A DNA stretch of 64,000 nucleotides from Trypanosoma brucei (taxonomy: Eukaryota). Position numbers and translations under genes: made by a program. Shown piece after piece: positions 16,408 to 42,114 of the stretch. Position 1 is the stretch's first letter. The number at the start of each line of letters is the position of its first letter. The notes beneath the pieces were generated by a model. That model saw nothing but the letters and a program-made list of their open reading frames with translations, made no database searches and had not been told where the DNA came from. The stretch is from positions 2,368,001-2,432,000 of the forward strand of contig CP000071.1 in the NCBI GenBank assembly GCA_000002445.1, read 5' to 3'.

Positions 16408-16503
16408 CCTGTACTAATAACTTTGGCGCTAGTAGGGTGCCAAAGGGTATACTGATTCCTGGCATTACTGTTTGTTTTGTTTTATTGTTCGGCTCTGGGA
16501 CGC

Positions 16504-18723
16504 ATGCATCGAAAAAGCATCGTGTCGAACTATTTTATATCACCTGAGTATTCTGTGGCGGGCTCACGTGTTTTCACCCCAAATGCATCCGCTGAGGAAG
16601 TAACATTGAGTGACGCACCGACGCAACTCTCGTTGCAAATAACATCACCGAAGACATCTATACGTCCGTCGGCGGTGTCTTCATTGCGTTTTAAAAGGGG
16701 ACGAGAAGCCTCATGGCACGGTCGGTACCATAACGGTTCCGCGGGGGAAAACACAATGGGTTTTATGGAGGCAGTGGCGGCTTCCGTTTCCCGCCGCGGT
16801 GACGTGGTGGCACATTCTTCTTGTGAATCCCACCAAAACTTCATGTCGCGTGCAGGTAATTTTGTGGAATCTACGACACACAGTGATTCGTCGGACGGGT
16901 ACCGGTATGCGAAGTTGCCCCGGAAGGAGCTTATTATGATTGCGGGAGGTGAAGATAGCGGGGAAAAGGAAGATTTGGCTAGTTTTCGGAAGGACTTGAG
17001 GCGTTTGCAGGAGCGACACGAGCAACTGAACAAGGTTGTGGAAGAGACACGGGAAGAGTTGAGACGGAGCTGGGAGGAAAATGACCGACTCAAGATGCGT
17101 GCAGACCAGTCGGTAAAAGAGCTGCGGCTGGAAGTGGCGCAGCTGTCTAAACATGTCCAGCTTTTGGAAGGACGGAGTACATCCGTAGAGCGCTCACTCG
17201 CTTCTCTAAACGGAATGGAGAGTCTGGTGGAATGCGTTCAGGGTGAGCTTCCTTCTTTGCGCAAGGAAATTGGCCGGAACACTACTTCAATAGCAGTGCT
17301 GGAAAGGCTGTTAGAAGATATGAAGCACCAGCCGCGTGTCTCACAAGTCGCAGTGAATTCAGTTTCGGCTTCTGCTAGCGGGCAGGTCACCTCCCTTGGG
17401 GCTCCTCCACCTGCGTTGTTGAATGACGAACGCGCAACTAGTCATTCTTCCACGACCCCATTTTCGTTTGGTGGTGCAAAACCTAACGCCAACCTCAGTG
17501 GACAACTGACTTCCTCACCTGCTGCTTCCAACTCCGTTGCGGGATCGAAGCCGGAGCCAGCATCGGCTAGCGCACCTTCATTCACTGGTGTAAGTGCAAC
17601 TGCAGGATCTGTTGACAAGCCGTCCAATCCCTTTGGAGTTTCTGCAGCATCTGCAACCACGGCTGGTGGGTCAGCGCCGGCTCCGGCATCAAATGGCACA
17701 CCTTCATTTGGCAGCGCAGTTACAACTACGGCCCCCGGAGGGAATGCATCTTCTCCGTTTGACTCATCCAAGAATGCTGGAGTCTCGGCAACAGCAACTG
17801 CGTCATCTGCCTCATATACATTCGGTGGTGCAAGCACACCTGCATCCTCCACTAACAAACCTCCCAATCCGTTTGCTGCTACCGTAAGCTTTTCGCCTGC
17901 TGATGGGAAAGGGGCAACACCAGCATTGGCAGGCACATTTTCGTTTAGTGCTACCGGCGCGGCCGATACTCTCAGCGACAAACCGCCAACTACGCCCGGT
18001 GCTGCCCCGCCAGTTGCGAGTCCGGCAACAAGTGCGCTTCCAACGAATCCGTTCTCACCTGGCAGCACAACTGCGACTGCACCAACTGCCGGGAAACCAA
18101 CCACATTATTTGGTGGTTACGCGACGGGTGATAGTTCAGCAGCCACGTCAGCTCCGGCACCAGGTAGTGCGTTTTCTTTTGGTGGCATAGGCACCACTGC
18201 ACCTGCTTCCACCGTTGGTTTTAGCTTCGGAGGCATGCCTAAGGTTGCCGAGACATCAACTGCTGGCGTCAATACAACAATATCACCATTTTCTAGGGCT
18301 GGTTCCACGGCAGTGACAGGTGCCACAGGCTCTCTAGGGGGGTTTTTATTCCCTTCCTCTTCTTCAGCGACGGCAGCTCCACTTGCGAGGGGCTCAGAGG
18401 TGAAGAATGACGTGTTTTCCAACGCGAAAGCTGTTGCTTCGTCCGGTGCGTCGTCTGTATTTGGCACTGGCGCTTTGATGTCTGCTGGGGTCTTGAGTCC
18501 TCCCACACCCTTCGGTGCGTCCGCTGGAGTAACTAATCCATTCGCTTCGTCGCAACGGGATGGAGAGAATGCTTCTAACCCATTTGGTCAGGGTGTACAA
18601 GGCTTAGCCGCTGCTTCCACTGGCACTGCGCTACCATTGCTTAGCCAGCCGCCGATCGGGTTCAGTGCACCGACCGTAAACGCCAATTTGGGTGCCCGTA
18701 GGAGGACACCGAAGCGGTTCTGA
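16504..18723 (+). CDS. FG-repeat nucleoporin (N-terminal coiled coil plus long S/T/A/G-rich region with SFG/PFG/NPFG repeats)
   Basis: At least 20 xFG repeats (PFSFGG, NPFGV, SPFDS, YTFGG, NPFAA, FSFSA, NPFS, SFSFGG, GFSFGG, PFGAS, NPFASS, NPFGQ). Heptad coiled coil at aa ~160-290. The track ORF starts at TTG 16477; the first ATG is 16504, about 100 nt after a polypyrimidine tract. Confidence 0.65.
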   Translation: MHRKSIVSNYFISPEYSVAGSRVFTPNASAEEVTLSDAPTQLSLQITSPKTSIRPSAVSSLRFKRGREASWHGRYHNGSAGENTMGFMEAVAASVSRRGDVVAHSSCESHQNFMSRAGNFVESTTHSDSSDGYRYAKLPRKELIMIAGGEDSGEKEDLASFRKDLRRLQERHEQLNKVVEETREELRRSWEENDRLKMRADQSVKELRLEVAQLSKHVQLLEGRSTSVERSLASLNGMESLVECVQGELPSLRKEIGRNTTSIAVLERLLEDMKHQPRVSQVAVNSVSASASGQVTSLGAPPPALLNDERATSHSSTTPFSFGGAKPNANLSGQLTSSPAASNSVAGSKPEPASASAPSFTGVSATAGSVDKPSNPFGVSAASATTAGGSAPAPASNGTPSFGSAVTTTAPGGNASSPFDSSKNAGVSATATASSASYTFGGASTPASSTNKPPNPFAATVSFSPADGKGATPALAGTFSFSATGAADTLSDKPPTTPGAAPPVASPATSALPTNPFSPGSTTATAPTAGKPTTLFGGYATGDSSAATSAPAPGSAFSFGGIGTTAPASTVGFSFGGMPKVAETSTAGVNTTISPFSRAGSTAVTGATGSLGGFLFPSSSSATAAPLARGSEVKNDVFSNAKAVASSGASSVFGTGALMSAGVLSPPTPFGASAGVTNPFASSQRDGENASNPFGQGVQGLAAASTGTALPLLSQPPIGFSAPTVNANLGARRRTPKRF

Positions 18724-18739
18724 TTATGTAATTGGCCGC

Positions 18740-18785
<46 letters not shown>

Positions 18786-20152: not shown

Positions 20153-20341
20153 AAATGCTCCTTTCATAGTGTGCGTGACGGACCCGATATGTTCCCTGTT
20201 ACTGATAGTTCCGTAATGGTATATGATATTGAGGAGGATAGCTACAGTGAACTAAAGGAACGCTTTGCTAATGAAAGGGATGTGTTTTCACGTTTTCTCT
20301 ACGATCCAGGCGATGGTGTGAAAACTTTCGACTGCTCGTAG
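20153..20341 (+). pseudogene. relic 3' end (last ~62 codons) of a GT31 glycosyltransferase gene, with no 5' part
   Basis: Near-identical to the 3' end of the full GT gene at 28060-28248 (…KCSFHSVRDGPDMFPVTDSSVMV…KTFDCS*). The sequence upstream of 20153 is unrelated and there is no in-frame ATG. Confidence 0.5.
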
Positions 20342-20754
20342 GCATTTTACCTATGTGCTGCGTACTCGCATTTTACGTTTAGTAAATGGTTATCGAACTA
20401 TTTTGGAATATGTTTGTTTTTATTTCAGTCTGTGTGTAGTACACTGTTGCCTTAGCTTTTTTCGTAGTGTCTCCTCTATTGCCTCTGTCACCATTAGTTT
20501 ACCGCAGATAATGAATTGTACCATTACTAATTTTGTGTTGCGTTTTGATGAAAACTAAAACTTTGAAGGTTTGCATGTCTTGACATTGCATGGTTTTGTG
20601 TGTTGGGTGAAACATCCTTTACGGTTTTTGTACCATAATGCGGACCCCCTAACGTAATTGTGTGTTTTTTCCTTGTCTTTACCTACCCACAGTTCTTGTC
20701 ACAGTATGCTTCAATTTGCTATTGCATGTGTTCTGGCCAGCGGCTCAAACTATG

Positions 20755-20790
20755 ACTTTTTCTTCTCTTTCCCCATTTGTCACATTACCT
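20755..20790 (+). promoter_or_regulatory. polypyrimidine tract upstream of Cys-rich gene 1 (identical copy at 28662-28697 upstream of Cys-rich gene 2)
   Basis: ctttttcttctctttccccatttgtcacattacct. The first downstream AG is at ~20848, suggesting the real start codon is 20868 or 20886. Confidence 0.4.
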
Positions 20791-20795
20791 GATAC

Positions 20796-22448
20796 ATGTG
20801 TGTGTATTGTGCATTTGATAATGAATGGTTATTACTGTTTCATTTTTATAGCAGTTTTACCAAGGAGATGCGGACCAGAACAACAATGACGAGCGGTGCG
20901 CCTGCACGGCGCATGACTTCTCAGGGTCATGTAACTGCTTGCGTATCCAATAATAATGACTCTATGGCTGCAAAGCTGAGGAGGTGCCCCAGCTGTCAGT
21001 GCTACGGTTGTAGCGCCTTCACTGACCGATTGATTTTTTGTGTGGGAGAATGCAGGAATTGTGGCGAGGAAGTTGATCTTCATGATCTTGCAGCTCATGA
21101 GGCGCAGTGCATGGGACTAGGAGCGGTTGAGGGCACTCTTATCATCTGTGCGAAATGTTGTCGGGGGCTGAAACCAGGCAACATCCCCACCACTTCCGAA
21201 ACCAATCACGACAAGGAACAAAAAGAGAAAAACGTTCTATCTTTTTCCAAGGGGAAATGCTGCAAGGGACCGTATACACATCAAACCCATGCTGTATGCA
21301 GAGGGGAATGCAGAAAGAAGAATGACGGGAGCAACGTATCTTCCGTTCGCTGTGGGGGTTCCTGCAATGGTCATCGCAAAGACGGGCCCTGTGCTGTTTG
21401 TTGCGACACGCTTCCACACCTTACCCAACGTGAGGAAGGCCATGTCCACTGCAAGGGTCATGTGTTTGAGTGTACCACATGCGGACAGGTGTTTATGACT
21501 GCTGTCAAGTACGCCATGCATCTTTGTTGCGGTCGCACAGATCCTGAGCCAAAGTCTTCTACCTGTGGGCTATCGGAAGATACTGTAAAGGATCGTGGAG
21601 GTTGTTCTTACCCCACATGGGAGACTTCGTGTCTCAGTGTTTCGCCATTAAAAGGTCCTGCCCCTCATACGCCAGTTGCCACGAGGCCGCAATCCGCAAC
21701 TACCACCTCGTTGCCATCATATGCTGAATGCCCATCGCCGTCCCCAAGTTTACTGCGAGCGGCGGCTGTCAAGCCTCCCAGCCGTTCCTTTGAGAAATCA
21801 TCTGGTGCGAGCAGTGGTGTTCTTGGAGGTAACCAAGCAAAGAAGTCCAAATCCCGACTCCGTGGCGATTCCTCCACTGAGGCAAGGGATGATTTGGGCA
21901 GGCGTCAACCGAATAAAGGAATACATGCGGCGGAGGGAACAGCCAGTTCCAACTTCAGGGTGTCTGGGCGTGCAGAAAGTGTACCGCGAAACCGAGTGTC
22001 AGAAGAAGGTGGTTGTAGCACAGGCCTAGTTGGACGCAATAATGTTTGGAGGCCACTACCTCTATTTGCGGGAGACGGTGGGAGGAGAATGGGACCGTCG
22101 CGAATGTCGTCGGCTGCTGGGAGTTTAAGGAGCTCTGTGATGGATTCTCGTGAGCGTGACGGAGAGCATGGAACAACAATTTGGAGAACCAGGGAGGCAC
22201 AACCGGATAGCTTCATTCCAATTGTTGAGAAGACTTCACCCTCTCACCATCAGAGTCACTCTGCCACAGTTGTCGACTGTATGGGTTCCTCCGTGAGCGT
22301 TACTACGATTAACAGCCGCGTAGCTGCACCACTTATACTCGTCAGCCCTTGCCGCAAGAGGGAAGCAGTGAGTGATACAGTGTCAATTGAAGTAATCACG
22401 AGGGACACGGTTGGTGTCGACGCCGCTGTGATGAAACGCATTTGCTAA
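20796..22448 (+). CDS. Cys-rich zinc-finger protein, paralogue 1 (TRAF-like/C2HC-type Cys scaffold, C2HC finger, long S/R/G-rich disordered tail)
   Basis: 550-aa ORF. Polypyrimidine tract at 20755-20790. The likely real start is MRTRTT at 20868 or MTSGAP at 20886. Cys spacing CPxC…GC…CxxC…CG…DLxxHxxxC and HVHCKGHVFECTTCGQVFMTAVKYAMHLCC. Paralogous to 28703-30502. Confidence 0.55.
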   Translation: MCVYCAFDNEWLLLFHFYSSFTKEMRTRTTMTSGAPARRMTSQGHVTACVSNNNDSMAAKLRRCPSCQCYGCSAFTDRLIFCVGECRNCGEEVDLHDLAAHEAQCMGLGAVEGTLIICAKCCRGLKPGNIPTTSETNHDKEQKEKNVLSFSKGKCCKGPYTHQTHAVCRGECRKKNDGSNVSSVRCGGSCNGHRKDGPCAVCCDTLPHLTQREEGHVHCKGHVFECTTCGQVFMTAVKYAMHLCCGRTDPEPKSSTCGLSEDTVKDRGGCSYPTWETSCLSVSPLKGPAPHTPVATRPQSATTTSLPSYAECPSPSPSLLRAAAVKPPSRSFEKSSGASSGVLGGNQAKKSKSRLRGDSSTEARDDLGRRQPNKGIHAAEGTASSNFRVSGRAESVPRNRVSEEGGCSTGLVGRNNVWRPLPLFAGDGGRRMGPSRMSSAAGSLRSSVMDSRERDGEHGTTIWRTREAQPDSFIPIVEKTSPSHHQSHSATVVDCMGSSVSVTTINSRVAAPLILVSPCRKREAVSDTVSIEVITRDTVGVDAAVMKRIC

Positions 22449-23595
22449 AGTGCTCATTTAAGTGAAGGAGCGTTGAAGGTCCGTTAGTTAGAACACGTAC
22501 CAACATGACGTTTACTCTCTTAATTTGTTTTATTCCATTTTTCACTAAGGCACCTTTACTGCACGTGCTGCAGCAGGTATTTACTCGCTCGTGAAGTGCT
22601 GAGCCAACACTCTCAAACCAACGGTGGACCTCGCGGCGATGCGACTGTGCTTAGTTTCTATTTGCGAGAGTGACACGTGTATATGTTTGTGTTGTCTCGC
22701 ATATTTACATCATATACTTTCCTATTCATGTGAATGGGTGTATCCCTTACTTGTTTTTCCAGGGTTTTACTGTGCACGGTGTGGTGGCGGACGTTGGGGT
22801 TGGAGTGTCTAAAAGGCTAATTAAGAAAGTGTTTTTATTTTTATTTTGGGAATTACATATTTAAAGGGACTGACAATGCAGCCGGGATTAAAAGAGGAGA
22901 CTTTATTATTAGCAGTGTATGATGTTAGATACTTTCTTTCCACCGCCCGTGAGTACCACTGATTCAACATGGTTTCTAATCTCGCTATTGGTGCGTCGGG
23001 CAATATTTCTCTCTTTTTGAGATGGGCACTTTAATTCCTAATCATTAGACCCCGTTTCACGTAAGTGGGCCTTCAGATACTTCCAGCTTCTTTCTTTTTT
23101 TTTTTGCCCATCTCTTAATGTACGCTATGAATTACAGTGGTGCTGTGGGGAAAGGTGCGTGATGAAGGCGTCTCCCACTTTTTTTTTTTAATTATCCAGT
23201 TTTGCTAAAGTGGGCGTGTGCTACCATTTCCATATGAGAGGTGCAGTCATACCTCCAATCCTGAGCTCTCATTGCTGGTTCGTAAGTATCCGTAGCATAT
23301 AAACGTTTTTTATTTTTCTCTATTTTTCTGCTTTGAGGAGAGTCACACTTCTCGTTGGTTCTTTACATGTGGTGTTGTCTGCGAAATACTAATTACTGCA
23401 GGAATGTGTCCTCCGTACACTGGCCGACTCATCAAAATGGCGCATTAGGCTTGGATTTCTCGTTTAATTTTTATACTTTCTCTTCCATCCTCGTTTGTAG
23501 GTACATGATATATTATCCACTCGAAGACTCACCAGGAAAATGGAGGGGGGGGGTGAGGGATTTAGTCACGGTGCTGAAGTGGCATTTGTGCTACA

Positions 23596-24285
23596 GTGTT
23601 ACTCTTATCTTTATGTACAGTAGCCATTTACCTTACGCCCCGTCAAAATAATGGAATGAAACATCGTGAGAAGGCAGTTATGCAGGTACCGAGTGTGCGG
23701 AGTCACGTAGTTAACGTTCCCTCCAAATATCCCTTGTGGATACGAGAGGCTCTCGCTTACGTCCCTTCCACAGTTTTGCGTCAGTGGGAGGATGCCGAAT
23801 ATTTGGTGGTGTTTGGTGTGCCTTCTGTGGACATAAATGTGAGACGGCGACGGAGGCATTTGCAGCGGATGACTTGTTGGGCGTATGGTGGCGTTGCGCG
23901 GCGTGCAAATGACTTCGTGGGAAGTATGCTGCCATTATATATCCTTGCACGTCACCCCGACAATAACTACGTCTTCACGTCTGCTGCCTTAGAGGAGGCT
24001 GAGAAGTGGAATGATGTAATTACACTTCCAATGAATGAGGGTCGTGTGCCGACCAAAAAGCAAGTGGGCCAGGATGGAAAATGGGGTGTTGAAGCAGAGG
24101 TTGGTATGAGTCGCAAGACATTCATGTGGTTTGATTTGTCGCTGATTGTTTTCTCACGCGCCGCGTATATTGCGAAAGGCGATGATGACATGTTTTTGCG
24201 TGTTCCACAGTACCTTGTTGACTTACGCGATCTACCACGACGAGGGGTATATTGGGGTACGATTGATATGGATGGTGCTGTGTGA
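23596..24285 (+). pseudogene. GT31 glycosyltransferase copy truncated at both ends (GT-a). It retains the RxTW and DDD motifs but lacks an ATG-initiated N-terminus and the C-terminal EDxxxG half
   Basis: The ORF begins at GTG just after an in-frame TGA at 23575. Homology to the full copies starts at 23583 (inside the signal-anchor codons). The reading frame runs from WGTID at 24267 straight into the inter-GT spacer sequence and stops at 24285. Confidence 0.5.
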
Positions 24286-25560
24286 TTTTGTGGGTATGCT
24301 GAGCTGTCTGTTGGTTACGACTTGGCATGCAAAGAGTTTAACGATCTGTACAGTGTTTATTGTAGCGAGCACACAGAGCTGAGGTGTGTAATCAAGAACT
24401 GTATCAAGTTAACAAACAATTTAAATTCTTTTATATGCCTTCTTTCCTTTTTCCACTCTTCCACCTGCCGTAATAGCATTTGTTATATTTGTCATTTTGT
24501 CTGATTATAATTACACTTGATATGTTGTTGCCCTTCCTGTATTCTTGTCGGAGGTAAGTCTATGTCCCTGTCGGAGCCCCGGAAGCGTGAATTTAGGCAA
24601 AGAAGTATCGCGAGGCGCAGCATTTGTGCTACAGTGTTACTCTTATCTTTATGTACAGTAGCCATTTACCTTACGCCCCGTCGAGATAATGGAATGAAAC
24701 ATCGTGAGAAGGCAGTTATGCAGGTACCGAGTGTGCGGAGTCACGTAGTTAACGTTCCCTCCAAATATCCCTTGTGGATACGAGAGGCTCTCGCTTACGT
24801 CCCTTCCACAGTTTTGCGTCAGTGGGAGGATGCCGAATATTTGGTGGTGTTTGGTGTGCCTTCTGTGGACATAAATGTGAGACGGCGACGGAGGCATTTG
24901 CAGCGGATGACTTGTTGGGCGTATGGTGGCGTTGCGCGGCGTGCAAATGACTTCGTGGGAAGTATGCTGCCATTATATATCCTTGCACGTCACCCCGACA
25001 ATAACTACGTCTTCACGTCTGCTGCCTTAGAGGAGGCTGAGAAGTGGAATGATGTAATTACACTTCCAATGAATGAGGGTCGTGTGTCGACCAAAAAGCA
25101 AGTGGGCCAGGATGGAAAATGGGGTGTTGAAGCAGAGGTTGGTATGAGTCGCAAGACATTCATGTGGTTTGATTTGTCGCTGATTGTTTTCTCACGCGCC
25201 GCGTATATTGCGAAAGGCGATGATGACATGTTTTTGCGTGTTCCACAGTACCTTGTTGACTTACGCGATCTACCACGACGAGGGGTATATTGGGGTACGA
25301 TTGATAGATATACCGTTGGCAGAACAAGGTTTAACTACGCTTTTGGTTGGTGCTACACCCTTGCTCGTGATGTTGCTAAGCAGTTTGTTTCTTATGGACC
25401 ACTGCGCAAAGTAGTGAACAGTTCCTCGTCAGTGCTCAGTATGTTTACGATTAAGCGTTTCTATCTTCTGGCTGAGGACGCGATGGTTGGACTAACATTG
25501 CAGAGGGCCGGGTACGCTAGCAAAATACTTTACATTCGGGAAAAGAAATGCTCCTTTCAT
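24268..25560 (+). repeat. ~1.29 kb direct repeat: inter-GT spacer/5' leader (249 bp) plus the first ~333 codons of the GT gene. It is ~100% identical to 26782-28074, and its GT part is also present at 23583-24267
   Basis: Offset 2514 bp between copies b and c (identical minus-strand shadow ORFs 24649/27163, 24749/27263, 25005/27519). Offset 1038 bp between copies a and b. Confidence 0.8.
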
Positions 25561-25734
25561 AACGTGCACGCCGGGCCAACTGTTGTTGCTGTCACCGATA
25601 GTTCCGTAATGGTGCACCATGTTAGGGAGGATGAATACGAGAAACTAAAGCAACGTTTTGCTAATGAGAGGGATGTGGCTCCACGTTTTATTTACAGTAT
25701 TTATGAGGGTATGAAGGGTTTTAGTTGCCGGTAG
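24562..25734 (+). CDS. UDP-Gal/UDP-GlcNAc-dependent glycosyltransferase (GT31, beta-1,3-transferase-like), type II membrane protein, copy GT-b with a divergent C-terminal ~58 aa
   Basis: Motifs RRRRHLQRMTCW (RxTW), YIAKGDDDMFL (DxD) and LAEDAMVGL (EDxxxG). Short basic cytoplasmic tail plus TM (ATVLLLSLCTVAIYL). The track ORF starts at TTG 24517; the first ATG is 24562. It is 100% identical to GT-c up to 25560, then ~75% identical. Confidence 0.75.
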   Translation: MSLSEPRKREFRQRSIARRSICATVLLLSLCTVAIYLTPRRDNGMKHREKAVMQVPSVRSHVVNVPSKYPLWIREALAYVPSTVLRQWEDAEYLVVFGVPSVDINVRRRRRHLQRMTCWAYGGVARRANDFVGSMLPLYILARHPDNNYVFTSAALEEAEKWNDVITLPMNEGRVSTKKQVGQDGKWGVEAEVGMSRKTFMWFDLSLIVFSRAAYIAKGDDDMFLRVPQYLVDLRDLPRRGVYWGTIDRYTVGRTRFNYAFGWCYTLARDVAKQFVSYGPLRKVVNSSSSVLSMFTIKRFYLLAEDAMVGLTLQRAGYASKILYIREKKCSFHNVHAGPTVVAVTDSSVMVHHVREDEYEKLKQRFANERDVAPRFIYSIYEGMKGFSCR

Positions 25735-26646
25735 CTGGAGAATTTGCTCGTGGCTGCATAGAGGCACTTCTTTACTGTGGTTGATTTTTTTTTTTTTCGT
25801 TCCTTGGAGTTGCTAAGGTGTGTATGTATTCTATGCTCGTGCGTTATGATGCATTAATTGAATTTTTGTTGTCTATGTCCGTCGTCTTGTTGATTGACAG
25901 TTGACTTGATTTCTCCTCTTGTGCTATTTGGTCACTCGTGCTGTGGTGCGGTGTCTTTTCACGAGGGGGGGGGGCTGACGAGCACGGGGGTATTTCTTTA
26001 ATGATTCTAATTGATTTGCCTCGCGATGGTGAAGGTGCACGAAACATCTTGTAATTTAACGCGTGCTGTGGTGGACAGGCATTGGTGCGTCGCATTTCGT
26101 GGATTAAATATACACGGACACAACCAGCCCTTTCATCGGTTATCTGGCTGTGAATTGTACTACCACCATTATTGTAACGCGGTTGTTTGTACTGTTAATT
26201 ATGTGTGTACAGTAAATCGCTCTCTACTTGAGATACTAATGTGGAAAATTGATGTTGCGTCCCATTGTTTCACTTTTGGACTCATCATGGAGAATTTGTG
26301 TGCTCACTCTTCCTGCCACTAAGTTCATTTCGCATTTCTTTGTGTTTGAGAATGATGTAAGAGTTAGTAGACATGTTATGTTCCCCCATTTGTGACATGG
26401 GGTAAACCGCAGCCACACCGCAAAACAATTACTGCAAATCCCCCTTTAATACATCTTTTCTCCGGAATTGTGTGCCCGTTCATTAGCGTTTCTCTCCGTA
26501 GCGGGCGATGAACTGCATGTTAAACTCAACGCAATCGAACATGCAGCCAGTTGCATTGTGCGGACCGCGACTGTATACGGTGATCCTGCAGGAAAAGAAA
26601 GCGCGAGAACAAATTGGAGTTAAAGGTACTGACCTCAAAGCTCACT

Positions 26647-26781
26647 TCGTGAGCGTCACTACGATTAACAACCGCGTAGCTGCACCACTTATACTCGTCA
26701 GCCCTTGCCGCAAGAGGGAAGCAGTGAGTGATACAGTGTCAATTGAAGTAATCACGAGGGGTATATTGGGGTACGATTGAT
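26647..26781 (+). other. chimeric recombination footprint: the last ~38 codons of the Cys-rich gene (…VSVTTINNRVAAPLILVSPCRKREAVSDTVSIEVITRG) fused via an 'acgaggg' microhomology to a GT-internal segment (gtatattggggtacgattgat), then the inter-GT spacer
   Basis: 26647-26760 matches 22294-22407 (Cys-rich paralogue 1 3' end). 26761-26781 matches the GT internal sequence at 24247-24267 and 25285-25305. 26782-27030 matches the spacer at 24268-24516. Confidence 0.5.
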
Positions 26782-28074
26782 ATGGATGGTGCTGTGTGAT
26801 TTTGTGGGTATGCTGAGCTGTCTGTTGGTTACGACTTGGCATGCAAAGAGTTTAACGATCTGTACAGTGTTTATTGTAGCGAGCACACAGAGCTGAGGTG
26901 TGTAATCAAGAACTGTATCAAGTTAACAAACAATTTAAATTCTTTTATATGCCTTCTTTCCTTTTTCCACTCTTCCACCTGCCGTAATAGCATTTGTTAT
27001 ATTTGTCATTTTGTCTGATTATAATTACACTTGATATGTTGTTGCCCTTCCTGTATTCTTGTCGGAGGTAAGTCTATGTCCCTGTCGGAGCCCCGGAAGC
27101 GTGAATTTAGGCAAAGAAGTATCGCGAGGCGCAGCATTTGTGCTACAGTGTTACTCTTATCTTTATGTACAGTAGCCATTTACCTTACGCCCCGTCGAGA
27201 TAATGGAATGAAACATCGTGAGAAGGCAGTTATGCAGGTACCGAGTGTGCGGAGTCACGTAGTTAACGTTCCCTCCAAATATCCCTTGTGGATACGAGAG
27301 GCTCTCGCTTACGTCCCTTCCACAGTTTTGCGTCAGTGGGAGGATGCCGAATATTTGGTGGTGTTTGGTGTGCCTTCTGTGGACATAAATGTGAGACGGC
27401 GACGGAGGCATTTGCAGCGGATGACTTGTTGGGCGTATGGTGGCGTTGCGCGGCGTGCAAATGACTTCGTGGGAAGTATGCTGCCATTATATATCCTTGC
27501 ACGTCACCCCGACAATAACTACGTCTTCACGTCTGCTGCTTTAGAGGAGGCTGAGAAGTGGAATGATGTAATTACACTTCCAATGAATGAGGGTCGTGTG
27601 TCGACCAAAAAGCAAGTGGGCCAGGATGGAAAATGGGGTGTTGAAGCAGAGGTTGGTATGAGTCGCAAGACATTCATGTGGTTTGATTTGTCGCTGATTG
27701 TTTTCTCACGCGCCGCGTATATTGCGAAAGGCGATGATGACATGTTTTTGCGTGTTCCACAGTACCTTGTTGACTTACGCGATCTACCACGACGAGGGGT
27801 ATATTGGGGTACGATTGATAGATATACCGTTGGCAGAACAAGGTTTAACTACGCTTTTGGTTGGTGCTACACCCTTGCTCGTGATGTTGCTAAGCAGTTT
27901 GTTTCTTATGGACCACTGCGCAAAGTAGTGAACAGTTCCTCGTCAGTGCTCAGTATGTTTACGATTAAGCGTTTCTATCTTCTGGCTGAGGACGCGATGG
28001 TTGGACTAACATTGCAGAGGGCCGGGTACGCTAGCAAAATACTTTACATTCGGGAAAAGAAATGCTCCTTTCAT
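26782..28074 (+). repeat. second copy of the 1.29 kb spacer+GT-5' repeat
   Basis: See 24268-25560. Confidence 0.8.
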
Positions 28075-28248
28075 AGTGTGCGTGACGGACCTGATATGTT
28101 CCCTGTTACTGATAGTTCCGTAATGGTACATGATATTGAGGAGGATAGCTACAGTGAACTAAAGGAACGCTTTGCTAATGAAAGGGATGTGTTTTCACGT
28201 TTTCTCTACGATCCAGGCGATGGTGTGAAAACTTTCGACTGCTCGTAG
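27076..28248 (+). CDS. UDP-Gal/UDP-GlcNAc-dependent glycosyltransferase (GT31), copy GT-c, full length
   Basis: Same motifs and architecture as GT-b. The track ORF starts at TTG 27031; the first ATG is 27076. Its 3' end is identical to the relic at 20153-20341. Confidence 0.75.
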   Translation: MSLSEPRKREFRQRSIARRSICATVLLLSLCTVAIYLTPRRDNGMKHREKAVMQVPSVRSHVVNVPSKYPLWIREALAYVPSTVLRQWEDAEYLVVFGVPSVDINVRRRRRHLQRMTCWAYGGVARRANDFVGSMLPLYILARHPDNNYVFTSAALEEAEKWNDVITLPMNEGRVSTKKQVGQDGKWGVEAEVGMSRKTFMWFDLSLIVFSRAAYIAKGDDDMFLRVPQYLVDLRDLPRRGVYWGTIDRYTVGRTRFNYAFGWCYTLARDVAKQFVSYGPLRKVVNSSSSVLSMFTIKRFYLLAEDAMVGLTLQRAGYASKILYIREKKCSFHSVRDGPDMFPVTDSSVMVHDIEEDSYSELKERFANERDVFSRFLYDPGDGVKTFDCS

Positions 28249-30639
28249 GCATTTTACCTATGTGCTGCGTACTCGCATTTTACGTTTAGTAAATGGTTAT
28301 CGAACTATTTTGGAATATGTTTGTTTTTCTTTCAGTCTGTGTGTAGTACACTGTTGCCTTAGCTTTTTTCGTAGTGTCTCCTCTATTGCCTCTGTCACCA
28401 TTAGTTTACCGCAGATAATGAATTGTACCATTACTAATTTTGTGTTGCGTTTTGATGAAAACTAAAACTTTGAAGGTTTGCATGTCTTGACATTGCATGG
28501 TTTTGTGTGTTGGGTGAAACATCCTTTACGGTTTTTGTACCATAATGCGGACCCCCTAACGTAATTGTGTGTTTTTTCCTTGTCTTTACCTACCCACAGT
28601 TCTTGTCACAGTATGCTTCAATTTGCTATTGCATGTGTTCTGGCCAGCGGCTCAAACTATGACTTTTTCTTCTCTTTCCCCATTTGTCACATTACCTGAT
28701 ACATGTGTGTGTATTGTGCATTTGATAATGAATGGTTATTACTGTTTCATTTTTATAGCAGTTTTACCAAGGAGATGCGGACCAGAACAACAATGACGAG
28801 CGGTGCGCCCCGTGTGTATTGTGGAGCGTTCGTGCGTAACAGGAAGCAACGGAAGATTTTATGCTCGCTAAATAGAAAGCTAAAGCTGTGCCCGTATTGT
28901 GGACGTCTCGGTTGCAGCCGTCACGTTAGACGGTGTGGGGGACAATTAGTGAATTGTTCCGTATGTGGCTCAAATGTGGTGATTCGTGATCTTGATGACC
29001 ATTTTTTTCGTTGTGGGGAGCAGTGCTCCCCTAGAGTTACTGTTGGTGGTGAAGAGGGGTGTTGCGAAGAGCGGAAGGTGTGTGAAACATATGATGCATA
29101 CTATAGTGAATGTAGCAATGGAGGTTGCAGTGGGGACTGCGCTCACCCCGCATGGAATGAAGTGCCCCAGGGGAGACAGGATAAAGGCGATGTCTGTGTT
29201 GTCTGTGACCTGTTGCTAGTGCATCCTGGGGGTGAGGAAGGCCATGTCCACTGCAAGGGTCATGTGTTTGAGTGTACCACATGCGGACAGGTGTTTATGA
29301 CTGCTGTCGAGTACGCCATGCATCTTTGTTGCGGTCGCACAGATCCTGAGCCAAAGTCTTCTACCTGTGGGCTATCGGAAGATACTGTAAAGGATCGTGG
29401 AGGTTGTTCTTACCCCACATGGGAGACTTCGTGTCTCAGTGTTTCGCCATTAAAAGGTCCTGCCCCTCATACGCCAGTTGCCACGAGGTCGCAATCTCCT
29501 TCGTCGATGCTTGTGTCGCCCGAGATCTCGTTTTCGTGCCCCAGATTTATGCAATTGACAACTGTCAAGCCTCCCAGCCGTTCCTTTGAGAAATCATCTG
29601 GTGCGAGCAGTGGTGTTCTTGGAGGTAACCAAGCAAAGAAGTCCAAATCCCGACTCCGTGGCGATTCCTCCACTGAGGCAAGGGATGATTTGGGCAGGCG
29701 TCAACCGAATAAAGGAATACATGCGGCGGAGGGAACAGCCAGTTCCAACTTCAGGGTGTCTGGGCGTGCAGAAAGTGTACCGCGAAACCGAGTGTCAGAA
29801 GAAGGTGGTTGTAGCACAGGCCTAGTTGGACGCAATAATGTTTGGAGGCCACTACCTCTATTTGCGGGAGACGGTGGGAGGAGAATGGGACCGTCGCGAA
29901 TGTCGTCGGCTGCTGGGAGTTTAAGGAGCTCTGTGATGGATTCTCGTGAGCGTGACGGAGAGCATGGAACAACAATTTGGAGAACCAGGGAGGCACAACC
30001 GGATAGCTTCATTCCAATTGTTGAGAAGACTTCACCCTCTCACCATCAGAGTCACTCTGCCACAGTTGTCGACTGTATGGGTTCCTCCGTGAGCGTTACT
30101 ACGATTAACAACCGTGAAGCTGCACCGCTGAGCACTGTTAACCCACAGTGCAGGAAGAATGCAAGTCGGTGCCAACCTCGTGACGTAGCTAGCATGCTTT
30201 CCGGAACGCGCTGCACAGTTTGCAATGTGGCCTCGCGTTTTGGCGATGGTTCGGGTGCGGGGTTGCGGCGTGCGGCATCTTTTAGTGGGTGTGGAAGGCC
30301 TCGAATGAGATCCGCTAGGAGGTGCGGGTCCCCTTCAGGGGATGTCGGGTGTTGTGTTCCGACGTCAGATGACACATATAGGCAGAAATCGCTGGAAATG
30401 GTTTTGGGGCAACGTGCCCGTGAAGTGCTGAGCCAACACTCTCAAACCAACGGTGGACCTCGCGGCGATGCGACTGTGCTTAGTTTCTATTTGCGAGAGT
30501 GACACGTGTATATGTTTGTGTTGTCTCGCATATTTACATCATATACTTTCCTATTCATGTGAATGGGTGTATCCCTTACTTGTTTTTCCAGGGTTTTACT
30601 GTGCACGGTGTGGTGGCGGACGTTGGGGTTGGAATGTCG
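28060..30639 (+). repeat. segmental duplication block A2 (partner of 20153-22810)
   Basis: See block A1. Confidence 0.8.
28703..30502 (+). CDS. Cys-rich zinc-finger protein, paralogue 2
   Basis: 599 aa. Upstream region and first ~36 codons are identical to paralogue 1. The N-terminal ~150 aa has a divergent sequence but conserved Cys spacing. The central ~330 aa is near-identical. The C-terminal tail diverges (extra Cys/Arg-rich segment). Confidence 0.55.
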   Translation: MCVYCAFDNEWLLLFHFYSSFTKEMRTRTTMTSGAPRVYCGAFVRNRKQRKILCSLNRKLKLCPYCGRLGCSRHVRRCGGQLVNCSVCGSNVVIRDLDDHFFRCGEQCSPRVTVGGEEGCCEERKVCETYDAYYSECSNGGCSGDCAHPAWNEVPQGRQDKGDVCVVCDLLLVHPGGEEGHVHCKGHVFECTTCGQVFMTAVEYAMHLCCGRTDPEPKSSTCGLSEDTVKDRGGCSYPTWETSCLSVSPLKGPAPHTPVATRSQSPSSMLVSPEISFSCPRFMQLTTVKPPSRSFEKSSGASSGVLGGNQAKKSKSRLRGDSSTEARDDLGRRQPNKGIHAAEGTASSNFRVSGRAESVPRNRVSEEGGCSTGLVGRNNVWRPLPLFAGDGGRRMGPSRMSSAAGSLRSSVMDSRERDGEHGTTIWRTREAQPDSFIPIVEKTSPSHHQSHSATVVDCMGSSVSVTTINNREAAPLSTVNPQCRKNASRCQPRDVASMLSGTRCTVCNVASRFGDGSGAGLRRAASFSGCGRPRMRSARRCGSPSGDVGCCVPTSDDTYRQKSLEMVLGQRAREVLSQHSQTNGGPRGDATVLSFYLRE

Positions 30640-31859
30640 AGAAGGATAATGAAAATCTCGTAGAGGCTAATGGAAGCTTTCGACCGGCGTTGTTGTGGTA
30701 TGCAATCGGTGACTGATGTTACCACGGTCGTGTCTCGTCTTTGTGGCATGTACAGTTTGGACGTGTTGGCGGTCTTTTTGACTTTGCCTTCTACATTATT
30801 CGCATTTTCCCCTTTCTTTTCTTTACTCGTTTTTCTCGTATACGATGTGTTGTTTACGTGATTACTGTATTTATGGTCTCACATGGTTGGCATAGTTGAA
30901 TATTCTTTGACTGGTTCTGTAGTTGTTAGTACTGTTTTACTTTTCGTTTACTTTAGATGAATGTGATTGCTGTTGTACCGAATTCGTTTTGGTGTAATAA
31001 TTTTCGTTGTTGCGGCTGCAGCGTCTGCCGTTCAGACGTGCGAGCATTGTAGAAATAATGTTAAGGGTTCCTCCTGTTTTCATGGCTTTCCTTTTTTTTT
31101 TTGTCCATAAGTTTACTACCTGAAGATCGCATCTCACTTTGAAGGCGCTTCAGCTGCAGTGTCGTTAGTTAGCTGCTTGATCTTGACCATTTGGGGGGCG
31201 TGTACAATCTTTTAAAATGCAGCAGCCCTTATTTCCTGGGACAGGGAGAGGTGGCTATGTTTTGAAAAAAAAAAACGTATGCCGTTGTTTGTCATCTGTG
31301 GAGCAAGCTGTACTCAAGATTATTTTCCTGCTTTCCCCCCTTTTTTCTAATTAATGTATAAATACAGCTAACCAAGTGTAGATATAACTTATTTGTGTGT
31401 GGAAGGCGTGTGTTTGGACGATGCGATTACCTCGGGGGATGTATGGATGAACAAAAAGATGCTACATGCAGTATCGTTTCCATTTCAGTGACTTCACTGT
31501 ATGCTGAAGGTGCCTACTGCCAGTTGTGGGCGTTTCAACCTGCGCGTGCGCGGAATGTTTCTGCGGCGATTAATTCCACCTTGAATTACATGCAGCCGCT
31601 TTCCACCTGTTTTCAAATTACGTATTGGCACACTGGCACCCAAATGGTGGCCAAAACTTACTTTTAGTCATATATTTCTATAGTCCTCCGCTTTGACTTG
31701 TTTCCCCCCTCTCTCGCTGAGCAACTAAAGAAACAGTGACAATAACATCAGCGTCATCGGCAGCTGTATTAGTCGTAAAGGTAGCGTCATTCGTAACGGT
31801 AGCGGCAGTGACCCAATAACAAAGAGGGAACAAAATCAAGCATACTAATACACACACCA

Positions 31860-42065: not shown

Positions 42066-42114
<49 letters not shown>
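42066..42114. repeat. (TA)n microsatellite, ~24 units
   Basis: Direct reading. Confidence 0.95.

What the first reader, a model, noticed from the sequence alone, without database searches (positions are those of the whole stretch)
20153..30700. Mosaic tandem array pairing GT31 glycosyltransferase genes with paralogous Cys-rich zinc-finger genes
Within ~10.5 kb the sequence shows a relic GT 3' end (20153-20341), Cys-rich gene 1 (20796-22448), a doubly truncated GT-a (23596-24285), full GT-b (24562-25734), a unique insert (25735-26646), a chimeric Cys-rich-3'/GT/spacer footprint (26647-26781), full GT-c (27076-28248) and Cys-rich gene 2 (28703-30502). The ancestral unit therefore looks like [spacer - GT - Cys-rich gene], amplified and then scrambled by unequal crossover and gene conversion. 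GT31 tandem families are known in trypanosomes, where they glycosylate surface-coat components. A Cys-rich zinc-finger gene that is consistently co-duplicated downstream of each GT is not something I can place in a described family. The two gene types may form a functional pair, for example a regulator/adaptor co-evolving with the transferase, or simply a hitch-hiking neighbour. This is the only accessory-like, fast-evolving locus in an otherwise conserved core cluster.
Basis: partly seen in the sequence, partly recalled or inferred. Interest (0 to 1): 0.8.

Follow-up and report, generated by a model that had tools for sequence, protein, structure and literature searches.

The report
Rearranged trypanosome glycosyltransferase/zinc-finger gene array
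This is the already annotated glycosyltransferase array on Trypanosoma brucei chromosome 8, in which a neighbouring zinc-finger gene was copied along with the enzyme gene and the copies were later scrambled by recombination; it is real but ordinary, and nothing shows that the two genes work together.

Summary
Window 20153-30700 is a mosaic of direct repeats (95-100% identical) made of glycosyltransferase (GT) pieces and two paralogous Cys-rich genes.

The window is T. brucei brucei TREU927 chromosome 8. The four intact genes are GenBank AAZ13565-68. I infer they are Tb927.8.8070, 8090, 8100 and 8110.

The GTs belong to the kinetoplastid CAZy GT67 family (lineage 1), not strictly GT31.

The Cys-rich genes belong to an uncharacterised, Trypanosoma-wide family with TRAF-like C2HC fingers plus one C2H2-like finger. 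They match no curated family at its threshold.

A GT followed by this zinc-finger gene recurs on TREU927 chromosome 4 (three alternating pairs) and in T. congolense (three pairs plus one extra zinc-finger gene). So the idea of an amplified two-gene unit holds.

The functional-pair idea is not supported:
- The zinc-finger gene is an old syntenic neighbour.
- T. melophagium amplified only the GT.
- One T. vivax locus has the zinc-finger gene without a GT.
- GT arrays of other lineages lack it.

Jackson (2007) already described these paralogous arrays and the fast-evolving zinc-finger paralogues. Interest is low.

The parts
20153..20341 (+). Relic 3' end (last 189 nt, including the stop codon) of a deleted GT67 gene, of the GT-c type
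   Evidence: 99.6% identical to 28060-28248. tblastn with GT-b residues 329-389 hits 20153-20335. Homology stops abruptly upstream of 20153.
20796..22448 (+). Zinc-finger gene 1, 550-aa ORF. GenBank AAZ13565; inferred Tb927.8.8070. The conserved start is probably at 20868.
   Evidence: 100% identical to the TREU927 protein P0002. The N-terminal motif MRTRTTMTSGAP is shared with the T. congolense and chromosome 4 homologues. dN/dS against T. b. gambiense is 0.20.
20903..21429 (+). Old, divergent N-terminal finger segment of gene 1. Its counterpart in gene 2 is 28810-29231.
   Evidence: No BLASTN match between the two copies. dS is about 2.3 (saturated), against 0.06 in the flanking block. The boundaries are sharp.
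22587..22824 (+). Block that lies in the 3' UTR of gene 1 but partly in the coding sequence of gene 2 (30416-30653)
   Evidence: 97-98% identity. The last 28 codons of gene 2 are present at 22587-22670.
23582..24268 (+). GT-a, a GT67 pseudogene truncated at both ends (GT nucleotides 59-745). It has no ATG upstream of the membrane anchor and lacks the ED motif.
   Evidence: 99.4-99.6% identical to 24620-25306 and 27134-27820. The 229-aa ORF starts with GTG. No protein is deposited for it in GenBank.
24269..24561 (+). Spacer copy 1, the intergenic region and 5' UTR upstream of GT-b
   Evidence: 100% identical to 26783-27075.
24562..25734 (+). GT-b, an intact 390-aa GT67 lineage 1 glycosyltransferase (inferred TbGT16 sub-family, Tb927.8.8090/8100)
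   Evidence: Carries the WG, YIAKGDDD and EDAMVG motifs and an N-terminal hydrophobic anchor. Its first 984 nt differ from GT-c at one synonymous site, while the last 186 nt have dS 0.74.
25735..26644 (+). Unique sequence downstream of GT-b. Probably the old 3' region of this unit, whose zinc-finger gene was deleted.
   Evidence: No match except the T. b. gambiense orthologue (99.2%). No family member was found there by hmmsearch.
26645..26782 (+). Deletion footprint: a zinc-finger gene 3' fragment of the gene 1 type (26645-26760) joined to a 29-nt GT piece (26754-26782) through the 7-nt microhomology ACGAGGG
   Evidence: base-by-base junction. tblastn with gene 1 residues 470-518 hits 26631-26777.
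26783..27075 (+). Spacer copy 2
   Evidence: 100% identical to 24269-24561.
27076..28248 (+). GT-c, an intact 390-aa GT67 glycosyltransferase (GenBank AAZ13567)
   Evidence: Exact sequence match to the TREU927 protein.
28703..30502 (+). Zinc-finger gene 2, 599-aa ORF. GenBank AAZ13568; inferred Tb927.8.8110. The conserved start is probably at 28775.
   Evidence: Exact match to the TREU927 protein and 97% identical to T. b. gambiense. AlphaFold2 with an 11-sequence alignment gives pLDDT of 90 or more for the two N-terminal fingers and 77-86 for the C2H2-like finger. dN/dS against T. b. gambiense is 0.38.

Best explanation
The locus is a rearranged tandem gene array inside an RNA polymerase II polycistronic unit of T. 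brucei chromosome 8.

Ancestral state (inferred): one or more lineage 1 GT67 glycosyltransferase genes were followed by a single TRAF-like zinc-finger gene and then by an RRM-like gene.

What happened (inferred):
- In the T. brucei / T. congolense branch, a duplication whose boundaries enclosed both the GT and the zinc-finger gene produced alternating GT and zinc-finger units.
- Once two GT copies flank a zinc-finger gene, every further unequal crossover between GT repeats carries that gene along. Co-duplication therefore needs no functional link.
- On chromosome 8 the array was then remodelled. The first GT was deleted down to its last 189 nt.
- The zinc-finger gene of the middle unit was deleted down to 116 nt by a microhomology-mediated junction.
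- A partial GT duplication created GT-a.
- Gene-conversion tracts homogenised some segments to 96-100% identity and left others saturated with change.

Shown here: the repeat structure, the junctions, the mosaic dS values, the synteny and the family distribution.

Inferred: the order of events. Also that amplification mainly raises GT dosage, the usual role of tandem arrays in organisms that lack gene-specific promoters. Also that the zinc-finger genes are hitch-hiking passengers that nevertheless still encode proteins.

Protein roles (from family membership and motifs): the GT is a type II Golgi membrane enzyme. The literature postulates, without a test, that it is a bloodstream-form beta-1,4-galactosyltransferase. 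The zinc-finger proteins have no signal peptide or membrane anchor. They carry two or three C2HC fingers, one C2H2-like finger and a long disordered tail, so they are most likely cytosolic or nuclear protein- or nucleic-acid-binding factors.
For: Repeat map and junctions.

Mosaic divergence:
- Zinc-finger gene 1 against gene 2 has dS 0.064 in 21430-22330, but about 2.3 in 20903-21429 and about 2.9 in the tail.
- GT-b against GT-c has dS 0.004 over the first 984 nt, but 0.74 over the last 186 nt.

Identity of the window: TREU927 chromosome 8, with four consecutive deposited genes AAZ13565-68.

T. b. gambiense has the same array minus 1038 bp, a deletion lying exactly between the GT-a and GT-b direct repeats.

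Alternation elsewhere:
- TREU927 chromosome 4, AAZ11015-20.
- T. congolense: FG672, 624, GT403, ZnF388, GT374, ZnF460, GT364, ZnF543, ZnF196, RRM757.

Synteny consistent with an ancestral single copy:
- T. melophagium has at least six GT copies or fragments, then one ZnF592, then the RRM-like gene.
- T. vivax has 616, ZnF509, RRM757 with no GT between them.

Family tree: chromosome 4 ZnF330 groups with T. congolense ZnF196 and the T. vivax and stercorarian copies. The chromosome 8 copies and the other T. congolense copies sit on long branches.

Coding constraint: dN/dS is 0.20 and 0.38 between TREU927 and T. b. gambiense, within the range of neighbouring genes, 0.15-0.66.

Literature:
- Paralogous GT tandem arrays Tb927.4.4290 / Tb927.8.8090, and the zinc-finger pair Tb927.4.4240 / Tb927.8.8070 with a faster chromosome 8 copy (PMC2212663).
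- Concerted evolution in T. brucei tandem arrays (PMC1855330).
Against: - The GT to zinc-finger adjacency is retained from T. melophagium to T. brucei, and the two genes were duplicated together in at least two separate events (the divergent old copies and the nearly identical chromosome 4 copies). This is also what a functional pair would show.
- The order of rearrangements is a parsimony reconstruction, not an observation.
- The dosage rationale was not tested here.
- dN/dS rests on few substitutions: 11 synonymous and 7 non-synonymous in gene 1.
- The T. vivax evidence comes from two assemblies with conflicting gene content.
Confidence: 0.8

Rival explanations
1. The GT and the zinc-finger gene form a co-evolving functional pair. 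The zinc-finger protein would act as a regulator or adaptor of the transferase, for example by binding its mRNA or its cytosolic tail. Selection would then keep the two adjacent and duplicate them together.
For: - The GT is followed by the zinc-finger gene on T. brucei chromosome 8 and chromosome 4, in T. congolense and in T. melophagium.
- The pair was co-amplified more than once.
- Both gene types evolve fast, and the chromosome 8 copy evolves faster than its chromosome 4 paralogue (PMC2212663).
- The zinc-finger genes remain under purifying selection.
Against: - Gene order is broadly conserved in trypanosomatid polycistrons, so adjacency alone carries little weight.
- T. melophagium amplified the GT at least six times without the zinc-finger gene.
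- The T. vivax locus L010 has the zinc-finger gene with no GT next to it.
- GT67 arrays of other lineages in T. grayi, T. theileri and T. cruzi have no such gene.
- Several T. congolense copies have lost finger cysteines.
- On chromosome 8, one GT and one zinc-finger gene were each deleted independently.
- The GT catalytic domain is lumenal, whereas the zinc-finger protein has no signal peptide or anchor.
- No experimental data exist for these genes in the searchable literature.
Confidence: 0.1
2. The array, or part of it, is an assembly artefact: collapsed, expanded or chimeric repeats.
For: - The repeats are 99-100% identical and up to 1.45 kb long, which makes them prone to misassembly.
- TREU927 and T. 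b. gambiense differ by exactly one repeat unit.
- T. equiperdum assemblies show a single chromosome 4 unit where TREU927 has three.
Against: - The independent T. b. gambiense assembly reproduces all junctions, the unique insert and the footprint at about 98% identity.
- The junctions have clean microhomology rather than the ambiguity of read ends.
- The 1038-bp difference is what recombination between direct repeats would produce.
Confidence: 0.05
3. The chromosome 8 zinc-finger ORFs are decaying pseudogenes or non-functional passengers, kept open only by chance.
For: - Zinc-finger gene 1 has lost the histidine of its first finger.
- Both copies carry lineage-specific Cys-rich insertions and replaced tails.
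- Pfam hits fall below threshold.
- Most of the protein is predicted to be disordered.
Against: - ORFs of 550 and 599 codons are intact in both TREU927 and T. b. gambiense.
- dN/dS is 0.20-0.38.
- The second C2HC finger and the C2H2-like finger are conserved and modelled with confidence.
Confidence: 0.05

Closest known systems
T. brucei chromosome 4 / chromosome 8 duplicon GT arrays (Tb927.4.4240-4290 and Tb927.8.8070-8110), described by Jackson 2007 (PMC2212663)
   Same: It is this very locus. That paper lists the paralogous tandem GT arrays and a 'Zinc finger, C2H2-type' paralogue pair with a faster-evolving chromosome 8 copy. The gene order, zinc finger then GT, GT, zinc finger, matches GenBank AAZ13565-68.
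   Different: In the passages read, the paper does not dissect the mosaic: the relic, the footprint, GT-a and the conversion tracts. It also does not follow the zinc-finger family beyond T. brucei or note that the same alternation occurs in T. congolense.
CAZy GT67 family, lineage 1 (TbGT4 / TbGT16 sub-families) of kinetoplastid UDP-Gal/UDP-GlcNAc-dependent glycosyltransferases
   Same: The sequences are homologous, carry the three beta-3-GT-derived motifs, have type II membrane topology and are organised in irregular tandem arrays.
   Different: No member of lineage 1 has a determined activity. The assignment of GT-b and GT-c to TbGT16 rests on copy number and chromosome, not on a stated gene identifier.
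Tandem gene arrays of T. brucei under concerted evolution (PGK, hexose transporters and others; Jackson 2007, PMC1855330)
   Same: Unequal crossover and gene conversion homogenise parts of the repeats. Structural disruption lets other parts diverge.
   Different: Here the repeat unit holds two unrelated genes and has been heavily degraded by deletions.
TRAF-type, TRAFD1/XAF1 and CEP104-type C2HC zinc-finger arrays
   Same: The fingers are tandem CxxC...H...C units with a beta-beta-alpha fold. The best fold matches are the TRAF6 zinc fingers and the TRAFD1 (FLN29) zf-TRAF domain. Conserved-type relatives score 24.6-26.3 bits on CEP104_ZnF, whose cut-off is 27.4.
   Different: All sequence and fold scores fall below the significance or curated thresholds. 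There is no RING, TRAF-C or TOG domain. The long disordered tails are specific to trypanosomes.
[quoted passage not shown]
   Same: It is a GT67 array flanked by a Rab-like GTPase gene, with non-GT genes interspersed.
   Different: I could not fetch Leishmania sequence. No Leishmania homologue of the zinc-finger family appeared at E <= 0.001, so homology of the interspersed genes remains untested.

Membership tests
CAZy GT67 (kinetoplastid beta-3-GT-derived glycosyltransferases) | Sequence homology to annotated trypanosomatid UDP-Gal/UDP-GlcNAc-dependent glycosyltransferases | tested here: met
   131 hits, with E down to 1e-263 for the best. T. congolense, T. vivax, T. grayi, T. theileri and T. 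cruzi homologues are 40-58% identical.
CAZy GT67 (kinetoplastid beta-3-GT-derived glycosyltransferases) | The motifs WG, Y(I/V/F)xKxDDD and ED(A/V/I/L/M)(M/L)x(G/A), as listed in PMC9472816 | tested here: met
   GT-b and GT-c contain KWG, YIAKGDDD and EDAMVG (translations; motif definition). GT-a keeps the first two motifs and lacks the third.
CAZy GT67 (kinetoplastid beta-3-GT-derived glycosyltransferases) | Type II membrane topology: a short cytosolic tail followed by an N-terminal hydrophobic anchor | tested here: met
   The stretch SICATVLLLSLCTVAIYLTP at residues 20-39 is read directly from the translation. No topology predictor was run.
CAZy GT67 (kinetoplastid beta-3-GT-derived glycosyltransferases) | Inverting beta-Gal or beta-GlcNAc transferase activity | not testable with these tools
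   Lineage 1 enzymes are uncharacterised. Beta-1,4-galactosyltransferase activity is only postulated (PMC9472816).
GT31 / Pfam Galactosyl_T (PF01762) | A score at or above the Pfam gathering threshold | tested here: inconclusive
   22.9 bits against a cut-off of 23, covering profile positions 64-186 only. CAZy places the family in GT67, not GT31 (PMC9472816).
TRAF-type / TRAFD1-XAF1 zinc finger | A match to PF21366 or PF02176 at the curated cut-off | tested here: not met
   Gene 2 scores 21.5 bits against 27, and gene 1 has no hit. Relatives score 17-22 bits.
TRAF-type / TRAFD1-XAF1 zinc finger | A fold match to solved TRAF-type fingers | tested here: inconclusive
   The best Foldseek hits are the TRAF6 N-terminal domain (E 0.026) and the TRAFD1/FLN29 zf-TRAF domain (E 0.07, target-normalised TM-score 0.50, 31% identity over 55 columns). 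None reaches E <= 0.001.
Classical C2H2 zinc finger (PF00096) | The Cx2-4C...Hx3-5H pattern and a Pfam score at the cut-off | tested here: not met
   E is 0.14-0.34 and the score 11.9 bits against 25.2. The motif FECTTCGQVFMTAVKYAMHLCC ends in H-x-C, so it is C2HC-like. The AlphaFold2 model shows a beta-beta-alpha unit with pLDDT 77-86.
CEP104-type zinc-finger array (PF21039) | A Pfam score at the cut-off | tested here: not met
   Five of seven conserved-type relatives hit it at 17.7-26.3 bits against 27.4. The window's own proteins do not.
Tandem gene array shaped by unequal crossover and gene conversion | Head-to-tail direct repeats on one strand, whose segment-wise identity is incompatible with a single divergence time | tested here: met
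   Searches show dS of 0.004-0.06 next to dS of 0.7-2.9 within the same gene pairs. Copy number differs from T. b. gambiense.

The most novel reading that the evidence does not exclude
The Trypanosoma-wide TRAF-like zinc-finger family, which always lies immediately downstream of the lineage 1 GT67 genes, could be a dedicated cytosolic partner of these transferases. It might regulate the GT mRNA within the polycistron, or act as an adaptor for the GT cytosolic tail. Its rapid diversification on chromosome 8 and in T. congolense would then track diversification of the GTs.
Probability: 0.07. Interest if true: 0.55.

Novelty: already known. Interest (0 to 1): 0.2.

Why it matters
The practical value is limited. 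The locus is a clean worked example of how trypanosome tandem arrays grow, carry neighbouring genes along and decay.

It also flags a conserved but unstudied zinc-finger family next to the GT67 lineage that has been postulated to make bloodstream-form poly-LacNAc. That family comprises Tb927.8.8070, Tb927.8.8110 and, on chromosome 4, Tb927.4.4240 and, I infer, 4260 and 4280.

If the zinc-finger proteins proved to be tied to the transferases, this would open a route into how glycosylation capacity is regulated in an organism without gene-specific promoters. Nothing found here points that way.

Tried and rejected
- **Word-indexed search with an alignment.** The search for homologous proteins with the six-sequence zinc-finger alignment returned only one T. 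congolense protein, because the word index is too insensitive for this family. The index-free HMM search was needed to find the family.
- **First AlphaFold2 model.** With three sequences it was unusable (pLDDT 39.6). The second, with 11 sequences, resolved only the fingers.
- **Fold and sequence searches against solved structures.** Foldseek against the PDB gave no hit at E <= 0.001. The PDB sequence profile search gave nothing below E 0.066.
- **Lower-ranked HMM hits.** Hits P0131-P0158 are generic animal or metagenomic C2HC proteins, not family members.
- **T. vivax GT contig.** L004 ends 132 bp after the GT, so its downstream gene could not be seen.
- **Leishmania and T. cruzi syntenic loci.** These could not be fetched.
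- **Recent conversion from chromosome 4.** I considered whether the divergent N-terminus of gene 2 was recently converted from chromosome 4. I rejected this because the two are only 51% identical in protein over 77 residues.
- **Origin of the unique insert.** I looked for a source of 25735-26644 and found none.
- **RNA families.** An Rfam scan of the window found nothing.

Full report
**1.

- 20153-20902 is 99.6% identical to 28060-28809. This block covers the last 189 nt of a glycosyltransferase (GT) gene, the intergenic region and the first 107 nt of the Cys-rich ORF.
- 21430-22330 matches 29232-30126 at 95.6%.
- 22587-22821 matches 30416-30650 at 97.9%.
- 22289-22404 matches 26645-26760 at 97.4%.
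- 23582-24268 matches 24620-25306 and 27134-27820 at 99.4-99.6%.
- 24240-25689 matches 26754-28203 at 97.7%.
- A 29-nt internal GT piece is identical at four places.
- The two 293-bp spacers are 100% identical.
- 25735-26644 has no relative except its T. b. gambiense orthologue.

All large ORFs in the window are on the + strand, as expected for a kinetoplastid polycistron.

**2. Where the window comes from.**

Cys-rich gene 1 is 100% identical to a T. brucei brucei TREU927 protein on a 2,481,190-bp record, which is chromosome 8. GT-c and Cys-rich gene 2 are exact matches to TREU927 proteins.

The deposited genes are consecutive: AAZ13565 (550 aa, hypothetical), AAZ13566 and AAZ13567 (390-aa GTs) and AAZ13568 (599 aa, hypothetical). 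GT-a has no deposited protein.

From the identifiers in Jackson 2007 (PMC2212663) and Pereira & Jackson 2018 (PMC5853035), I infer these are Tb927.8.8070, 8090, 8100 and 8110.

**3. The glycosyltransferases.**

GT-b has 131 homologues, nearly all named 'UDP-Gal or UDP-GlcNAc-dependent glycosyltransferase'. Pfam Galactosyl_T scores 22.9 bits against a cut-off of 23.

The literature places this kinetoplastid family in CAZy GT67. It derives from a beta-3-GT ancestor and is defined by the motifs WG, Y(I/V/F)xKxDDD and ED(A/V/I/L/M)(M/L)x(G/A) (PMC9472816). GT-b and GT-c have KWG, YIAKGDDD and EDAMVG plus an N-terminal hydrophobic anchor.

[quoted passage not shown] It is enriched in bloodstream forms and is postulated, without a test, to be a beta-1,4-galactosyltransferase. 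By copy number, the chromosome 8 genes would be TbGT16.

GT-a is a pseudogene. It covers GT nucleotides 59-745, has no ATG before the anchor and lacks the third motif.

**4. The Cys-rich genes.**

The two copies share nearly identical stretches that are interrupted by unalignable ones. Pfam gives only sub-threshold hits:
- TRAFD1-XIAF1_ZnF scores 21.5 bits against 27 for gene 2.
- zf-C2H2 gives E of 0.14-0.34.

An index-free HMM search of 1.84 billion representative proteins found genuine relatives only in Trypanosoma:
- T. brucei chromosome 4 (330 aa).
- T. congolense (388 and 196 aa).
- T. vivax (509/581 aa).
- T. melophagium (592 aa).
- T. grayi (609 aa).
- T. cruzi marinkellei (415 aa).
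- Two unnamed sequences from read-archive assemblies.

The remaining hits are generic C2HC proteins.

The conserved architecture has four parts:
- a short N-terminal motif (TSGAP);
- three CxxC...H...C fingers;
- one C2H2-like finger (F-x-C-x2-C-x3-F-x5-Y-x2-H);
- a long low-complexity tail.

The conserved-type relatives approach but do not reach the CEP104_ZnF cut-off (24.6-26.3 bits against 27.4). They also give weak zf-TRAF and UBZ hits.

With an 11-sequence alignment, AlphaFold2 models the two N-terminal fingers at pLDDT of 90 or more and the C2H2-like finger at 77-86. Everything else is disordered. The best fold matches are the TRAF6 fingers (E 0.026) and the TRAFD1 zf-TRAF domain (E 0.07), and neither is significant.

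The family is therefore best described as TRAF-like C2HC zinc-finger proteins without membership of a curated family.

The annotated start is probably 24 codons too far upstream. The homologues begin at the equivalent of M25, and in T. congolense and on chromosome 4 a stop codon lies just upstream of that ATG.

**5. Is the GT to zinc-finger pairing general?**

Within one syntenic locus, yes.
- The T. congolense contigs L008, L003 and L012 overlap. Together they read FG-rich 672, 624, GT403, ZnF388, GT374, ZnF460, GT364, ZnF543, ZnF196, RRM-like 757, 287 and 712.
- On TREU927 chromosome 4 the accession order AAZ11015-11020 is ZnF330, GT, ZnF330, GT, ZnF330, GT.
- T. equiperdum shows one such unit, followed by the RRM-like gene and the Rab-like GTPase.

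Beyond that branch, no.
- T. melophagium has at least six GT copies or fragments in tandem with nothing between them. A single ZnF592, the RRM-like gene and the 716-like gene follow.
- The T. vivax locus L010 reads Metallophos, CutA1, 616, ZnF509, RRM-like. It has no GT homology in the 1.7-kb gap upstream of the zinc-finger gene.
- GT67 arrays of other lineages in T. grayi, T. theileri and T. cruzi have no family member nearby.

A distance tree groups chromosome 4 ZnF330 with T. congolense ZnF196 and the T. vivax and stercorarian copies. The chromosome 8 pair and the other three T. congolense copies sit on long branches.

The simplest reading is an ancestral single zinc-finger gene lying between the GT or GTs and the RRM-like gene. 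In the T. brucei / T. congolense branch, the duplication unit then enclosed both genes. After that, any unequal exchange between GT repeats necessarily copies the gene between them.

**6. How chromosome 8 was scrambled.**

Segment-wise divergence is incompatible with a single duplication date.
- Gene 1 against gene 2: dS is 0.064 in 21430-22330, about 2.3 in 20903-21429 and about 2.9 in the tail.
- GT-b against GT-c: there is one synonymous difference in the first 984 nt, but dS is 0.74 in the last 186 nt.
- The C-terminal type of GT-c is the one preserved in the relic at 20153-20341.

The block boundaries are sharp.

The footprint at 26645-26782 joins a zinc-finger 3' fragment of the gene 1 type to a 29-nt GT piece through the shared heptamer ACGAGGG. 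This is the signature of a microhomology-mediated deletion that removed most of a zinc-finger gene and a truncated GT.

Both spacers are preceded by a GT sequence ending at the same GT nucleotide, 745. The unit 'truncated GT, spacer, full GT' therefore existed before it was duplicated.

T. b. gambiense is colinear with the window at about 98% identity. It lacks 1038 bp, which fuses GT-a to GT-b, and this is what recombination between the 687-bp direct repeats would produce.

Together these findings imply three ancestral GT and zinc-finger units on chromosome 8:
- Unit 0 lost its GT.
- Unit 1 lost its zinc-finger gene.
- Unit 2 is intact.

The order of events is inferred.

**7. Are the zinc-finger genes alive?**

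Between TREU927 and T. b. gambiense, dN/dS is 0.20 for gene 1 and 0.38 for gene 2. This lies within the range of the neighbouring genes, 0.15-0.66, though the counts are small. The ORFs are intact in both subspecies. They are probably functional, but I found no experimental data in the searchable literature.

**8. Comparison with what is known.**

Jackson 2007 showed that the 3' regions of chromosomes 4 and 8 are duplicons. [quoted passage not shown] He also listed a 'Zinc finger, C2H2-type' pair, Tb927.4.4240 / Tb927.8.8070, with only 0.145 coding identity and a significantly faster chromosome 8 copy. His companion paper established unequal crossover and gene conversion as the general regime of T. 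brucei arrays. Pereira & Jackson 2018 describe irregular GT arrays and mention hypothetical genes interspersed in the Leishmaniinae array.

The locus, its annotation and its mode of evolution are therefore known. This analysis adds three things:
- the base-level dissection of the mosaic;
- the Trypanosoma-wide extent and finger architecture of the zinc-finger family;
- the comparative evidence that the pairing is inherited synteny plus hitch-hiking.

**9. Verdict.**

The two-gene amplified unit and its scrambling hold. 'GT31' should read GT67. The functional-pair idea has no positive support and several counter-examples.

The novelty rating is 'already known' and interest is low, at 0.2. The residual novel possibility is that the zinc-finger family is a dedicated partner of lineage 1 GT67 enzymes. 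I put that at about 7%.

Noticed in passing
L004 (1-11191) and L010 (1-21530), both labelled T. vivax: Both loci begin with the EMP24 and Metallophos genes but then differ. L004 has CFAP300, an FG-rich gene and the GT. L010 has CutA1, the 616-aa gene, the zinc-finger gene and the RRM-like gene. Their Metallophos proteins are only 63% identical and there is no DNA-level match. Either T. vivax also carries two old duplicons of this region, which would bear on the age of the chromosome 4 / chromosome 8 duplication, or one assembly is from a different taxon.
   Followed up: partly
window 22587-22670 and 30416-30499: The last 28 codons of zinc-finger gene 2 are present, identical at the protein level, in the 3' UTR of gene 1. 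Gene 1 ends early because the segment 22331-22586 was replaced by unrelated sequence that carries a stop codon.
   Followed up: partly
window 16477-18723 (+): A 748-aa ORF rich in Ser, Ala, Gly and Thr with scattered FG/FSFG motifs, resembling an FG-nucleoporin. Jackson 2007 labels the paralogue pair just upstream of the zinc-finger pair 'spectrin repeat' (Tb927.8.8050); that this label refers to the present ORF is my inference. Only the N-terminal 280-490 residues are conserved in the chromosome 4 copy, T. congolense and T. vivax.
   Followed up: no
window 43955-44433: A 234-bp unit repeated twice in tandem (98% identical) at the 5' end of the 821-codon ORF 43939-46404.
   Followed up: no
L002 (T. 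equiperdum, chromosome 4-like) against TREU927 chromosome 4: The T. equiperdum assemblies show a single GT385 and ZnF330 unit, whereas TREU927 has three. This is either copy-number polymorphism or repeat collapse in the draft assemblies.
   Followed up: no
window 10001-12000, 36001-38000 and 40001-42000: Intergenic stretches with low GC content (0.33-0.39) against a background of about 0.47-0.52. A perfect (AT)24 run lies at 42066-42114 and a similar one at 18740-18765. These are probably ordinary UTR or intergenic tracts.
   Followed up: no
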